IMG/VR virus record: IMGVR_UViG_3300027985_000419
DNA: 23,977 nt
Strand: one strand, 5' to 3'
Source: a virus
Shown here: positions 11,938-13,348 of the stretch, piece by piece
How the letters are laid out: the number at the start of each line of letters is the position of its first letter
Numbering within the stretch: the stretch's first letter is position 1
The notes under the pieces: generated by a model
The model's input: the letters and a program-made list of their open reading frames with translations, nothing else
Database searches by the model: none
Told to the model about the DNA's origin: nothing
Program-made: the position numbers and the translations under genes

Positions 11938-12012
11938 AACTCCTGACGGGATTCGAACCCGCATTCTCTAGGGTCATTACGCCTAGTGCTTTGCCAGTTA
12001 AGCTTCAGGAGC
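11938..12012 (-). tRNA. tRNA-like gene with a 9-nt anticodon loop (CGTAATGAC). All other arms are canonical. Its decoding identity is unclear.
   Basis: Acceptor GCTCCTG/CAGGAGT. D-stem GCTT/AAGC. Anticodon stem CTAGG/CCTAG. T-arm GCGGG-TTCGAAT-CCCGT. Total length 74 nt plus discriminator. Confidence 0.5.
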
Positions 12013-12329
12013 ATGTAGACCGACAAGTATTGCCAGAATCGTTACCTCTATTAGGTGCGGGGCCATGAGGAGGCCCCGGTGGGGATTGCACTCACTATGT
12101 AGATCCTTAGCTGGCATTCGGTCGAAAGCAGTAGACTGGACTTTAACCAATCAGTTTGTCTGCCCATCACCAGGGTCTGCTAATTCCCCAGCTTCGCAAA
12201 CAAGCTTACCTCATGGACTGCTCGCCCTTACATCATTCCCGCCGCAGACCCGGGTGATGTAATGACTTTGGAAGTTGTCTTTCAAGAGGCATAGGTCTGC
12301 CTACCTCTATCCCCAACTCCTTCCTAGGA

Positions 12330-12413
12330 TGGCTCTGACAGGATTTGAACCTGCACGTCCATAAAGGACAACAGCCCCTCAAGCTGCCGCGTCTGCCGTT
12401 CCGCCACAGAGCC
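12330..12413 (-). tRNA. tRNA-Leu(GAG), class II
   Basis: Acceptor GGCTCTG/CAGAGCC. D-stem GCG/CGC. Anticodon stem GCAGC/GCTGT with loop TTGAGGG. Variable arm GTCC-TTTAT-GGAC. T-arm GCAGG-TTCAAAT-CCTGT. Confidence 0.8.
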
Positions 12414-12560
12414 GTGGCGCGTAGGTTAACCCCAGCATACTCCCCCACTTATCGACTGTCGGGTGTAACACTGGCTACGCATGTTGATGACTTAGCTTGC
12501 TCCCTCTTAACCGTTGAGCGCGCTACCCCCAGGAGGCTATGGACAGGGGGTTGTCATCGT

Positions 12561-12649
12561 TACGGGTACTAGGAGTCGAACCTAGCCTAGTCACCTTATC
12601 AGAGTGAAGTGAGTGTATAAATCTCCCTTGTGCACCGGCACCTACCCGT
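12561..12649 (-). tRNA. Class-II-sized tRNA-like element with a questionable D-arm
   Basis: Acceptor ACGGGTA/TACCCGT and T-arm CTAGG-TTCGACT-CCTAG are canonical. An internal hairpin is TCACT-CTGATAA-GGTGA. The D region does not fold normally. Confidence 0.3.
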
Positions 12650-13274
12650 GAGTTGGTGACATTTGGGCTCGGAATTTCCAGTGCTGGAATACTTTCTCAA
12701 GGGTAAAAGAGCCTTACCAAAAGCACAGTAAGAACAAGCCCTACTGCACCGAGAGGATGGAATTAGCTCTCCCCAAGGTATCCTCACCAGCCTTAACGAC
12801 CTTCAGGTGCTGTCCATCGGGAATGGACCTAGACCCTACTAAGCCGCCTGTTAATTTCGCCACCTGTTGGTTAATTTGACCTATGGTTCACGATTAGAAT
12901 TAGTGTGAATTTAGGAACAAACAACAATTTTAAGATAGTAATTCTTGGCGTTGTCGGCGTAACTGCAGCAGCCCTGGCCTCTAACGAAGAATACTCAACA
13001 GGCATCCGAACGGAGTAGTGTAACCCGTCACCGAACTCAGACGTTTTGGGTCCGAAGCTTTCCTAGCTGGACTATTTATCAGCAGTTTCCTGCTCGTGGG
13101 CCTAACCCACGCTAGGGGAGAACATCCAACGGTTATTCACACCACCAACCGCATCGAAAGTAGCTTCAGCCTTCTGCTGCAGCCCAGACATCCGCTACTT
13201 TCTGGCTGCTAAAAGCACATCCATAGTAACGTCAGTTGGCGCTTCGGGTGGAGTAGATTGACCCAACGTCTGAA

Positions 13275-13348
13275 AGATGGTGACAGGACTCGCACCTGCT
13301 TTTACGAGGGTTGCAATCTCGTGCTTCGACTACTTCAGCATCACCATC
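13275..13348 (-). tRNA. tRNA-like gene with a 9-nt anticodon loop (ATTGCAACC) and G55-type T-loop TGCGAGT. Coordinates are approximate, about +-2 nt.
   Basis: Perfect 7-bp acceptor GATGGTG/CACCATC. T-arm GCAGG-TGCGAGT-CCTGT. Anticodon stem ACGAG/CTCGT. The D-loop is long. Confidence 0.4.

What the first reader, a model, noticed from the sequence alone, without database searches (positions are those of the whole stretch)
11938..13348. tRNA-like genes with 9-nt anticodon loops
The 11938-12012 element has a perfect acceptor, D-arm and canonical T-arm but an anticodon loop of 9 nt (CGTAATGAC). The ~13275-13348 element has a perfect 7-bp acceptor and a 9-nt loop (ATTGCAACC). A third T-arm/D-arm-bearing element near 10800-10880 also gives a 9-nt loop (CCCGTAAAG) and its acceptor stem does not close. 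Expanded anticodon loops are incompatible with normal triplet decoding. Candidate roles are frameshift or quadruplet decoding, decoys for host anticodon nucleases, or regulatory tRNA-like RNAs.
Basis: seen in the sequence. Interest (0 to 1): 0.55.

Follow-up and report, generated by a model that had tools for sequence, protein, structure and literature searches.

The report
Phage tRNA with over-long anticodon arm
One of the three flagged genes is a real tRNA whose anticodon arm is two bases too long, and the same odd arm recurs in well over a hundred phage and prophage sequences, nearly always beside a small peptidyl-tRNA-hydrolase-like gene. That pairing looks like an undescribed tRNA-protein module. 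The other two flagged genes are an ordinary cysteine tRNA and a probably decayed tRNA.

Summary
Element A (11938-12012, minus strand) is confirmed. It is a strong tRNA (Rfam 53 bits) with five Watson-Crick anticodon-stem pairs closing the 9-nt loop CGUAAUGAC.

It is not a one-off. N-GUAAUGA-C loops on perfect, covarying 5-bp stems occur on 26 different tRNA bodies in IMG/VR and 25 in bacterial contigs, mostly Myxococcota prophages. They also occur, unannotated, in the cultured Myxococcus phage Mx1.

42 of 49 such tRNAs lie within 4 kb of a roughly 100-aa PTH2-family (peptidyl-tRNA hydrolase 2) gene. Conversely, 96 of 156 PTH2-like loci carry such a tRNA just downstream. tRNA-like genes whose anticodon arm ends in a GAAA or UUCG tetraloop often sit alongside.

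Loop positions 1 and 9 covary (A·C and C·A). The arm is therefore best read as 5 pairs, one non-canonical layer and the 7-nt loop G-U-A-A-U-G-A.

The most likely role is a non-standard, probably non-decoding, partner of the hydrolase. The mechanism is inferred.

The window itself has no PTH2-like gene.

Element B (13275-13348) is a standard tRNA-Cys(GCA) with an A31·C39 mismatch. Element C (10796-10874) has the same 19-nt arm, but its T stem and acceptor stem are defective. It scores below the Rfam threshold and has no homologues.

The parts
11938..12012 (-). Element A: class-I tRNA with a 19-nt anticodon arm. It belongs by loop and arm to the recurrent N-GUAAUGA-C class.
   Evidence: Rfam RF00005 scores 53.3 bits. 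ARAGORN calls it tRNA-Ile(aat). Hand parse. The identical loop occurs in other phages.
11982..11986 (-). A: 5' strand of the anticodon stem (CUAGG).
   Evidence: Five Watson-Crick pairs with 11968-11972.
11973..11981 (-). A: 9-nt loop CGUAAUGAC. It can also be read as a C·C layer (11981 and 11973) plus the 7-nt loop GUAAUGA (11974-11980).
   Evidence: Sequence. Rfam shows 8 residues against 6 in the loop. Family positions 1 and 9 covary.
11968..11972 (-). A: 3' strand of the anticodon stem (CCUAG).
13275..13348 (-). Element B: tRNA-Cys(GCA) of standard geometry with a U73 discriminator, an A31·C39 mismatch, T-loop UGCGAGU and a D-loop lacking GG.
   Evidence: Rfam scores 40.4 bits and aligns a 7-nt loop with a non-standard 31-39 pair. 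ARAGORN does not call it.
13310..13316 (-). B: 7-nt anticodon loop UUGCAAC. The flanking A31 is at 13317 and C39 at 13309.
10796..10874 (-). Element C: degenerate tRNA-like gene. It has a 19-nt anticodon arm, a GUA triplet, a short variable region, a T stem missing one 3' base, and mismatches at 1-72 and 2-71.
   Evidence: ARAGORN calls it tRNA-Tyr(gta). Rfam gives 23.2 bits, below the 29-bit threshold, over 10802-10870. No homologues in the phage collection.
10832..10840 (-). C: loop CCCGUAAAG, which can also be read as a C-G pair plus CCGUAAA.
7901..15661 (-). Context: a minus-strand tRNA array that holds A, B and C. It contains about 20 called tRNAs plus further uncalled tRNA-like elements and long ORF-poor spacers.

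Best explanation
Element A is a genuine member of a widespread tRNA class carried by phages and prophages that I could not find described. In this class the anticodon arm is one layer (2 nt) longer than normal. It has five Watson-Crick pairs, usually closed by G-C, then a pair-like layer that is mostly A·C or C·A (C·C in A), then the 7-nt loop G-U-A-A-U-G-A. The acceptor stem, the D/T elbow and the short variable loop are fully canonical.

Elsewhere the class is an operon-like partner of a roughly 100-aa PTH2-family (peptidyl-tRNA hydrolase 2) protein.

Shown: the structure, its recurrence, the gene linkage, and the co-occurrence in the same slot of tRNA-like genes whose anticodon arm is capped by a GAAA or UUCG tetraloop.

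Inferred: the RNA works through its tRNA body (acceptor end and elbow) rather than as a normal decoder. It would act as a dedicated substrate, decoy or regulator in a hydrolase-tRNA module that acts on the translation apparatus during infection. One example would be absorbing or reversing damage or acylation at tRNA 3' ends, or clearing stalled peptidyl-tRNA. I put about 0.85 on the class assignment and gene linkage, about 0.5 on 'not an ordinary decoder; works with the hydrolase', and no more than 0.25 on any one detailed mechanism.

In this window A is an orphan inside a large tRNA array, and any partner gene must lie elsewhere in the genome.

B is an ordinary tRNA-Cys. C is most likely a decayed tRNA, or a decayed member of the same long-arm kind.
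For: A's structure.

Recurrence:
- The pattern GTAATGAC plus a T-loop in IMG/VR gave 117 parsed matches. 27 had a perfect 5-bp stem in the 9-nt register, where (6/16)^5 x 117, about 0.9, is expected by chance.
- There are 26 distinct full cloverleaves in IMG/VR with differing stems, acceptors and discriminators, and 25 in bacterial contigs.
- A's whole arm matches a hairpin in Vibrio phage Va1.

Linkage:
- Neighbour clustering found one ORF family beside the tRNA on the same strand in 28 loci, mostly directly upstream.
- That family is PTH2-like. Pfam PF01981 gives 16-24 bits. Its profile hits only Pth2 structures in the PDB, with E-values from 8e-8 to 8e-4 over the full length.
- 42 of 49 loop-selected tRNAs have the ORF within 4 kb, 41 on the same strand. 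4 of the 7 misses sit at contig edges.
- The reverse test did not select on the loop. 160 PTH2-like loci were collected, and 96 of 156 assessable loci have a perfect-stem 9-nt-loop cloverleaf within 1.2 kb downstream.
- 43 of 54 tRNAs just downstream have a 9-nt loop, against 9 of 54 elsewhere in the same loci (Fisher p = 5e-11).

Independent detectors agree. Rfam scores these tRNAs 49-58 bits and puts the extra residues in the anticodon arm. ARAGORN of 115, mostly as Ile(aat).

Loop rules from 90 distinct sequences: U at position 3 in 88%, a purine at position 4 in 97%, A at position 8 in 93%. Positions 1 and 9 are A·C in 33, C·A in 17 and G-C in 11, on many different bodies.

Non-decoding siblings (GAAA or UUCG tetraloops, 5-6-nt xUUUA loops) sit beside them.

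A cultured example exists: Myxococcus phage Mx1 has the annotated 'peptidyl-tRNA hydrolase', then one ORF, then an unannotated tRNA with loop AGUAAUGAC.
Against: - The window has no PTH2-like ORF (tblastn; profile search of all six frames). A therefore lacks the feature that suggests the function, although the contig is only 24 kb of what is probably a very large phage genome.
- No expression, processing or aminoacylation data exist.
- The inner loop keeps U33 and A38 and usually a purine at 37. That is also what a working, unusual decoder with anticodon AAU would look like.
- The hydrolase family lacks the Lys of the canonical Pth2 'GK' motif (alignment). The catalytic role of that Lys rests on my own knowledge, so hydrolase activity is unproven.
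- My cloverleaf finder is ad hoc and misses some tRNAs (compare).
- Part of the linkage could reflect PTH2 genes simply living inside tRNA arrays, which is already known (PMC5966550, PMC7824862). However, ordinary tRNAs in the same loci do not show the long arm.
Confidence: 0.5

Rival explanations
1. A is a working but unusual elongator tRNA. It would read AUU (anticodon AAU in the inner 7-nt loop) or another triplet, and the extra layer would make it invisible to host anticodon nucleases. The linked hydrolase would clear ribosomes jammed by cleaved host tRNAs.
For: The inner loop has a canonical frame: U33 in 88%, a purine at 37 in about 81%, A38 in 93%. Positions 4-6 covary as a unit, like an anticodon. 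ARAGORN reads them as Ile(aat), Tyr(gta) and Leu(aag). Phage tRNAs are known to escape anticodon nucleases through loop changes (PMC10264068). PTH2 has been proposed to rescue jammed ribosomes in jumbo phages (PMC7824862). An 8-nt-loop tRNA can read triplets (PMC3113583).
Against: Discriminators vary (A, G, U) within one loop type, and G37 follows U36. By my own knowledge of IleRS and TyrRS identity rules, these do not fit. The body is class I, so the GUA members are not bacterial-type tRNA-Tyr. There is no compensating shortening elsewhere of the kind seen in tRNA-Pyl (8-9 is 2 nt, the variable loop is 4-5 nt). Tetraloop-capped siblings in the same slot cannot decode.
Confidence: 0.2
2. A is a +1 frameshift or quadruplet decoder. 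U at position 3 and A at position 8 would bracket a 4-nt anticodon (AAUG, reading CAUU).
For: Exactly four nucleotides lie between the conserved U and the conserved A. In the CYUAAGCAA subfamily the flanks are the classic CU...AA.
Against: The loop is 9 nt, not the 8 nt of known suppressors. Positions 1 and 9 covary as a pair, which leaves a 7-nt loop. The linked ORFs that were recovered read as uninterrupted frames of about 83-130 aa; no systematic search for frameshifted genes was made. Tetraloop siblings occupy the same slot. The same loop sits on bodies with different discriminators.
Confidence: 0.08
3. The tRNA-like RNA and the PTH2-like protein form a toxin-antitoxin-like or self-regulating pair. 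The RNA would be a pseudo-substrate that holds the protein in check, or a processing and stability element of its mRNA. It would have no role on the ribosome.
For: The two-gene linkage is tight, on the same strand, with small genes carried on mobile elements. The RNA partner varies in its anticodon arm but keeps the acceptor stem and elbow. The catalytic-motif Lys is not conserved.
Against: The GUAAUGA loop is strongly conserved across very different bodies, which argues for a specific interaction of the loop itself. In the window, A occurs without the protein. Often two or three different tRNA-like genes follow one hydrolase gene.
Confidence: 0.15
4. A is a decaying tRNA pseudogene with a chance 2-nt insertion. 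A, B and C would simply be noise in a fast-evolving phage tRNA array.
For: The array does hold degenerate or aberrant elements: C, partial Rfam hits, and extra T-arm hairpins. There are no close relatives of this phage for an orthologue check.
Against: For A, the exact loop and arm geometry recur on more than 50 independent tRNA bodies, and every other arm is intact. This rival remains reasonable for C only.
Confidence: 0.03

Closest known systems
Canonical elongator tRNA (Rfam RF00005)
   Same: A and B have a full cloverleaf: a 7-bp acceptor stem, a D arm, a T arm and a class-I variable loop. A has G18G19 and UUCGAAU; B instead has T-loop UGCGAGU and a D-loop without GG. Both score above the gathering threshold.
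   Different: A's anticodon arm is 19 nt instead of 17. C falls below threshold.
Natural tRNAs with enlarged anticodon loops (yeast mitochondrial tRNA-Thr1 with an 8-nt loop; frameshift suppressors such as sufD and sufJ)
   Same: Extra nucleotides in the anticodon loop of an otherwise normal tRNA.
   Different: Those have one extra nucleotide and a traceable parent isoacceptor (PMC3113583). Here there are two extra nucleotides that behave as an added pair-like layer. The loop sequence is shared across unrelated bodies, and the gene is linked to a hydrolase gene.
tRNAs with 6-bp anticodon stems (tRNA-Pyl, tRNA-Sec, mitochondrial tRNA-Ser(UCN); from my own knowledge)
   Same: Six stacked layers below a 7-nt loop.
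   Different: Those compensate with a 1-nt acceptor/D connector, small D loops and short variable loops, or an altered acceptor/T length. The class described here keeps all canonical spacers, so the anticodon end is displaced.
PTH2 genes in phage tRNA arrays and jumbo phages (PMC5966550, PMC7824862)
   Same: A PTH2-family gene embedded among phage tRNA genes, proposed to recycle peptidyl-tRNA during host attack on tRNAs.
   Different: Neither paper returned a passage about a partner tRNA with an abnormal anticodon arm when I searched them for 'anticodon loop' and related terms. Here the partner is specific and mostly non-canonical.
Phage tRNAs that evade anticodon nucleases through loop mutations (PMC10264068)
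   Same: Phage-encoded tRNAs whose anticodon loops differ from host tRNAs in ways that would block nuclease recognition.
   Different: By that paper's title and abstract the changes are anticodon-loop mutations in otherwise decoding tRNAs; I did not read its full text. The class described here changes arm length and co-occurs with anticodon-less siblings.
tRNA-like non-decoding RNAs (bacterial Y RNA-like YrlA, tmRNA tRNA-like domain)
   Same: They use a tRNA-like acceptor and T/D module without normal decoding. The window has weak YrlA-like hits next to A, and Mx1 has a Ro/TROVE gene near its module.
   Different: A is a complete, unpermuted cloverleaf. There is no Rfam match other than tRNA.

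Membership tests
Canonical tRNA (RF00005) | Covariance-model score at or above the 29-bit gathering threshold over the full model | tested here: met
   A scores 53.3 bits and B 40.4 bits. C scores 23.2 bits over model positions 3-68, so C does not meet it.
Canonical tRNA (RF00005) | A 5-bp anticodon stem closing a 7-nt loop with U33 and a purine at 37 (17-nt arm) | tested here: not met
   A has 5 bp plus 9 nt. C has 19 nt with C at position 33. B does meet it apart from the A31·C39 mismatch.
PTH2-linked long-anticodon-arm tRNAs (class defined here) | Class-I cloverleaf with 5 Watson-Crick anticodon-stem pairs plus a 9-nt loop (19-nt arm) and normal spacers | tested here: met
   A: 8-9 is AA, position 26 is A, the variable loop is AGAAU, and the total is 75 nt, within the family range of 73-76 nt.
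PTH2-linked long-anticodon-arm tRNAs (class defined here) | Loop matches N-G-U-A-A-U-G-A-C/A (U at position 3, purine at 4, A at 8) and the closing pair is G-C | tested here: met
   A's loop CGUAAUGAC is identical to loops in L220, L239 and L301. Its closing pair is G-C.
PTH2-linked long-anticodon-arm tRNAs (class defined here) | A PTH2-like ORF within about 4 kb, usually on the same strand | tested here: not met
   No PTH2-like ORF anywhere in the 23,977-bp window (tblastn; profile against six-frame ORFs). Elsewhere 42 of 49 meet it. The contig is incomplete.
+1 frameshift-suppressor / quadruplet-decoding tRNAs | An 8-nt loop with a 4-nt anticodon between U33 and purine 37, derived from an identifiable isoacceptor | tested here: not met
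   The loop is 9 nt. Positions 1 and 9 covary as a pair. The bodies and discriminators are heterogeneous.
6-bp-anticodon-stem tRNAs (Pyl, Sec, mitochondrial Ser(UCN) type) | Compensating shortening elsewhere (1-nt connector at 8-9, short variable loop, small D loop) or an altered acceptor/T length | tested here: not met
   A has a 2-nt connector, an 8-nt D loop, a 5-nt variable loop and a 7/5 acceptor/T arrangement. The family is the same. The defining features themselves come from my own knowledge.
tRNA-Cys (for B) | GCA anticodon in a 7-nt loop with a U73 discriminator | tested here: met
   The loop is UUGCAAC and the discriminator is U. U73 as a Cys identity element is my own knowledge. Other phage tRNA-Cys genes seen here have loop CUGCAAC with U73.
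Bacterial-type tRNA-Tyr (for C) | GUA anticodon plus a long (class II) variable arm and an intact acceptor stem | tested here: not met
   GUA is present, but the variable region is 4 nt (AGAU), 1-72 and 2-71 are mismatched, and the T stem is defective. The class-II requirement is my own knowledge.
Pth2 (PF01981), for the linked protein outside the window | Full-length homology to solved Pth2 structures | tested here: met
   The profile of 18 sequences hits only Pth2 chains (1rzw, 2zv3, 1wn2, 1rlk, 1q7s, 1xty) with E-values from 8e-8 to 8e-4. Pfam gives 16-24 bits, around the 23-bit cut-off.
Pth2 (PF01981), for the linked protein outside the window | Conserved catalytic residues and hydrolase activity | tested here: inconclusive
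   The R-x-D-L, H-A-A and E-x-D columns are invariant, but the Lys of the 'GK' motif aligns to V, T or L. Activity cannot be tested with these tools.

The most novel reading that the evidence does not exclude
Phages and prophages, notably those of Myxococcota, carry a compact two-part system. It consists of a divergent PTH2-family protein plus one to three dedicated tRNA-like RNAs whose anticodon arms are deliberately non-decoding: a 19-nt arm with the GUAAUGA loop, GAAA or UUCG tetraloop caps, or short xUUUA loops. The system would act on the translation machinery through tRNA bodies rather than codons, for example as an anti-defence decoy-and-repair module for attacks on tRNA 3' ends or on aminoacyl/peptidyl-tRNA, or as a device that controls ribosome stalling. 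Element A would be a dispersed member of that system.
Probability: 0.45. Interest if true: 0.85.

Novelty: new variant of a known kind. Interest (0 to 1): 0.72.

Why it matters
Why phages carry tRNA genes has been debated for more than 50 years (PMC10264068). A conserved class of phage tRNAs that keeps a perfect tRNA body but has a lengthened or capped anticodon arm, and that is genetically tied to a peptidyl-tRNA-hydrolase-like gene, points to a tRNA function outside ordinary decoding.

It would also give PTH2 genes in phage tRNA arrays a specific RNA partner.

The idea is directly testable, because the module is present in a cultured phage with a tractable host (Myxococcus phage Mx1).

It matters for annotation too. 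ARAGORN labels these genes tRNA-Ile(aat), Tyr(gta) or Leu(aag), which would distort codon-usage arguments, and the Mx1 GenBank record does not annotate its copy.

Tried and rejected
1. Close relatives of the window. Megablast and blastn of 10500-13500 against the phage collection gave nothing, or only single-tRNA matches. The vault-like protein and an exact A pattern found nothing in IMG/VR.

2. Contexts of CCA-adding-enzyme homologues at 56-70% identity. They are not syntenic and carry no tRNA array.

3. My first loop pattern had the wrong gap (15-18 where A needs 14) and returned only unrelated hits. One search corrected it.

4. A D-arm/T-arm pattern found only three unrelated tRNAs.

5. Alternative fold of the loop as G2-C9 and U3-A8 pairs with a bulged position 1 and an AAUG tetraloop (RNAfold). 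Rejected because variants such as ACUAAUGAC and CGUAAUGAA change one side without compensation.

6. Bulged-G / sarcin-ricin-like motif (AGUA/GAC). This was recalled from memory only, and position 2 is not invariant. Not pursued.

7. 'Stop-codon display' (UAA UGA in the loop). The UGA is not conserved in other subfamilies, so I treat it as coincidence.

8. Reading positions 5-7 as the anticodon. This would put a purine at position 33 and is less consistent than the register using positions 4-6.

9. Amino-acid identity from discriminator and acceptor. There is no consistent pattern.

10. PTH2 loci in Mycobacterium phage Myrna and in a 462-kb uncultured phage. These PTH2 genes are more distant and are followed by other tRNAs, including CUA suppressor-like ones, not by this class.

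11. Homologues of C. None found.

12. Literature. Seven searches found no description of 9-nt-loop phage tRNAs or of a PTH2-tRNA pairing.
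Full report
**What the window is.** The window is a whole 23,977-bp JGI metagenome contig (P0001). It carries a minus-strand tRNA array between about 7.9 and 15.7 kb. ARAGORN finds 16 tRNAs, and Rfam finds 18 tRNAs plus a tmRNA at 19203-19723. The flanking genes are a vault-protein-like ORF, a CCA-adding enzyme, an Rv2179c-like exoribonuclease, a VWA protein and a ribonucleotide reductase. The vault-like ORF has 30%-identical homologues only in 462-735-kb uncultured phages, so the source is probably a very large phage. 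I found no close relative. There is no megablast hit in 50,697 phage records, nothing in IMG/VR with the vault-like protein or an exact A pattern, and the best CCA-enzyme homologue is 70% identical in non-syntenic contexts.

**Element A (11938-12012, minus strand).** Rfam scores it 53.3 bits as tRNA. The sequence parses without ambiguity as GCUCCUG / AA / GCUU-AACUGGCA-AAGC / A / CUAGG-CGUAAUGAC-CCUAG / AGAAU / GCGGG-UUCGAAU-CCCGU / CAGGAGU / U. Every spacer is canonical and the anticodon stem has five Watson-Crick pairs. The two extra nucleotides (75 nt instead of 73) lie in the loop, and Rfam shows 8 loop residues against 6 model positions. ARAGORN's tRNA-Ile(aat) call amounts to reading the inner seven bases, GUAAUGA.

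**Element B (13275-13348, minus strand).** Rfam (40.4 bits) aligns a standard 7-nt loop UUGCAAC and marks the 31-39 position as a non-standard pair, A·C. The length (74 nt), the GCA anticodon and the U73 discriminator fit tRNA-Cys. ARAGORN probably misses B because it also has a G13·A22 pair, a D-loop without GG and a UGCGAGU T-loop.

**Element C (10796-10874, minus strand).** The arm is CCCGG + CCCGUAAAG + CUGGG. Equivalently it is six pairs plus CCGUAAA with C at position 33. That makes it 19 nt like A's arm. However, the T stem lacks one 3' base, 1-72 and 2-71 are mismatched, the variable region is short although the triplet is GUA, and Rfam gives 23.2 bits against a threshold of 29. There are no homologues in the phage collection. 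I regard C as a decayed tRNA, possibly a decayed long-arm one, and cannot say more.

**A's arm is not unique.**
- blastn of A against the phage records hit Vibrio phage Va1 and relatives across the anticodon and T arms. Va1 has the hairpin CUAGG-AGUAAUGAC-CCUAG next to the same T arm, inside a larger tRNA-like RNA.
Of 117 parsed matches, 27 have a perfect 5-bp stem in exactly the 9-nt register, where about 0.9 is expected by chance.
- These are 26 distinct complete cloverleaves with different stems, acceptors and discriminators.
- The same scan of one genome per bacterial species gave 25 more. They are mostly in Myxococcota MAGs and genomes (Archangium, Kofleriaceae, Sorangium, Haliangiales), with others in Planctomycetota and Dechloromonas. 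The Archangium-group copies checked have a tail-fibre-like ORF just downstream, judged by eye from its sequence, which suggests prophages.

**A conserved neighbour.**
- Clustering ORFs within 4 kb of 50 such tRNAs gave one dominant family, about 100 aa, on the same strand and mostly directly upstream, in 28 loci.
- It matches Pfam PTH2 weakly to moderately. Its profile hits only Pth2 structures in the PDB over the full length.
- With that profile, 42 of 49 tRNAs have such an ORF within 4 kb, 41 on the same strand. Four of the seven misses are at contig edges.
- I then ran the reverse test, which does not select on the loop. 80 IMG/VR loci and 80 JGI metagenome loci were fetched with a PTH2-like alignment.
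- A strict cloverleaf finder found a 9-nt-loop tRNA just downstream in 46 of the first 80.
- With a relaxed finder, 96 of 156 assessable loci have at least one perfect-stem 9-nt-loop cloverleaf within 1.2 kb downstream.
- Within the same loci, 43 of 54 tRNAs immediately downstream have the 9-nt loop against 9 of 54 elsewhere (Fisher p = 5e-11).
- Rfam confirms these as tRNAs at 49-58 bits and places the extra residues in the anticodon arm. ARAGORN of 115, as Ile(aat) 66, Tyr(gta) 16, Leu(aag) 10 and others.
- The only hit of the first PTH2-like query in the phage-record collection was a cultured phage, Myxococcus phage Mx1. Its order is a Ro/TROVE protein, two hypothetical ORFs, tRNA-Gly, an annotated 'peptidyl-tRNA hydrolase', one ORF, then an unannotated tRNA with loop AGUAAUGAC.

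**Anatomy of the class.**
- In 90 distinct sequences with 48 different anticodon stems, the loop is N-N-U-R-N-N-N-A-N. U is at position 3 in 88%, a purine at position 4 in 97%, and A at position 8 in 93%. AGUAAUGAC is the most common, followed by CGUAAUGAA.
- Positions 1 and 9 are A·C in 33, C·A in 17, G-C in 11, A·A in 7, C-G in 5 and C·C in 4. Mutual information is 0.44, reached by 0 of 500 shuffles. The A..C and C..A types each sit on many different bodies, including near-identical bodies with the swap.
- The arm is therefore best described as five Watson-Crick pairs, one pair-like layer and a 7-nt loop G-U-A-A-U-G-A. A has the rarer C·C layer.
- The alternative with G2-C9 and U3-A8 pairs and an AAUG tetraloop (RNAfold) is not supported, because variants change one side only.
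- Spacers are canonical, so nothing compensates for the longer arm.
- Discriminators vary (A, G, U) within one loop type.

**What else sits in the slot.** The hydrolase gene is often followed by two or three tRNA-like genes. Besides the long-arm type, these include cloverleaves whose anticodon arm ends in a GAAA or UUCG tetraloop, cloverleaves with 5-6-nt xUUUA loops, and some with 8-nt loops. Tetraloop-capped arms cannot read codons. This is the strongest hint that the partners of this hydrolase act through the tRNA body rather than by decoding.

**Interpretation.** Three things are shown: A is a real, intact tRNA with a 19-nt anticodon arm; the arm type is conserved and widespread; and elsewhere it is tied to a PTH2-like gene. 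What it does is inferred.
- I favour a non-standard, probably non-decoding role with the hydrolase, as substrate, decoy or regulator acting at the tRNA 3' end or on peptidyl-tRNA.
- A nuclease-resistant decoder of AUU is the main rival, because the inner loop keeps the U33...R37-A38 frame.
- Quadruplet decoding is unlikely, for the reasons given above.
- A toxin-antitoxin-like pair is possible.
- A pseudogene is excluded for A, but not for C.

Two weaknesses remain for this window. No PTH2-like ORF is present, and there is no orthologue of A in a close relative.

**Known or new.** PTH2 genes in phage tRNA arrays and jumbo phages are known (PMC5966550, PMC7824862). Phage tRNAs with loop mutations that evade anticodon nucleases are also known (PMC10264068). 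Enlarged anticodon loops exist in yeast mitochondrial tRNA-Thr1 and in suppressors. Seven full-text searches found no description of a 9-nt-loop or long-arm phage tRNA class, nor of a PTH2-tRNA pairing. That library does not cover most subscription journals, so prior description cannot be excluded. I rate it a new variant of a known kind, with a fair chance that the whole module is a new system.

**Verdict.** Interest is raised by the recurrence and the gene linkage, and the idea can be tested in a cultured phage.

Noticed in passing
window 19203-19723 (-): A 521-nt tmRNA (Rfam 86.3 bits) with large insertions. ARAGORN misses it. Its T-loop is UGCAACU.
   Followed up: no
window 9221-9295, 14693-14765, 14530-14604, 8837-8908, 8481-8552, 9579-9651, 13275-13348, 10582-10667 (all -): Eight tRNAs, and also the tmRNA, have the T-loop UGCRAnU (G where Psi55 normally sits) together with D-loops carrying 'UAG' instead of the G18G19 'GG'. 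This looks like covariation of the elbow 18-55 contact. Four of them (Thr UGU, Thr CGU, CAU, Cys) are found by Rfam but not by ARAGORN.
   Followed up: partly
window 10197-10338, 12014-12124, 14809-14863, 15336-15409 (-): Weak Y RNA-like (YrlA/YrlB) Rfam hits of 23-31 bits, well below threshold. One abuts element A. In Myxococcus phage Mx1 a Ro/TROVE protein gene lies about 0.8 kb upstream of the hydrolase-tRNA module.
   Followed up: partly
window 14838-14952, 12561-12649, 8110-8195, 11543-11618 (-): Uncalled tRNA-like elements with perfect T arms and closed 7-bp acceptor stems but expanded interiors. One is 115 nt with a CUCAUAA (CAU) arm and an inserted second T-arm-like hairpin. One is an 89-nt tRNA-Ile(GAU)-like RNA with an enlarged D region. 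One is 86 nt with another 5-bp stem and a 9-nt loop (AGCACAAAG).
   Followed up: partly
window 11424-11937, 12414-13274, 13349-14527: Long stretches inside the tRNA array with few ORFs over 80 aa. They may hold further structured RNAs.
   Followed up: no
window 4341-7427 (-), 19742-20533 (-): A 1028-aa ORF with major-vault-protein shoulder and repeat domains (PF11978, E = 3e-20), and a VWA-domain ORF. The vault-like ORF has 30%-identical homologues in 462-735-kb uncultured phages.
   Followed up: partly
window 15807-17203 (-): A CCA-adding enzyme (PF01743) and an Rv2179c-like 3'-5' exoribonuclease sit directly next to the tRNA array. Most of the tRNAs inspected here, including A and B, do not encode CCA.
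   Followed up: no
L042 (Vibrio phage Va1, MK387337.2) ~3612-3789: An unannotated tRNA-like RNA of about 178 nt. It has the acceptor UGUAGAUG/CAUCUACA-CCA, a T arm and a hairpin nearly identical to A's anticodon arm (AGUAAUGAC), with about 100 nt inserted after the D arm. Rfam gives only a 22-bit tmRNA hit. There is no PTH2-like ORF in the 9 kb examined.
   Followed up: partly
L209-L368 (PTH2-like loci), e.g. L215, L233, L235, L244, L280, L303: tRNA-like genes whose anticodon arm is capped by a GAAA or UUCG tetraloop, or by 5-6-nt xUUUA loops, follow the PTH2-like gene, often together with the long-arm tRNA.
   Followed up: partly
L161, L164, L171, L176, L189, L203, L206, L207 and L173/L174/L181 group: In Myxococcota contigs, one of two unrelated small ORF families (about 110-150 aa, with no Pfam or PHROG match) lies between the PTH2-like gene and the tRNA.
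   Followed up: partly
L037 8992-9062 (IMG/VR 2974779332, 133-kb phage with tmRNA): A tRNA with a 6-nt anticodon loop (AGGCCA). ARAGORN calls it 'tRNA-???(gc)'.
   Followed up: no
L370 (Mycobacterium phage Myrna) 2463-2534; L371 (LR756500.1) 4097-4165: More distant PTH2-like genes are followed by tRNAs with a CUA (amber-reading) anticodon, which ARAGORN calls tRNA-Pyl.
   Followed up: no
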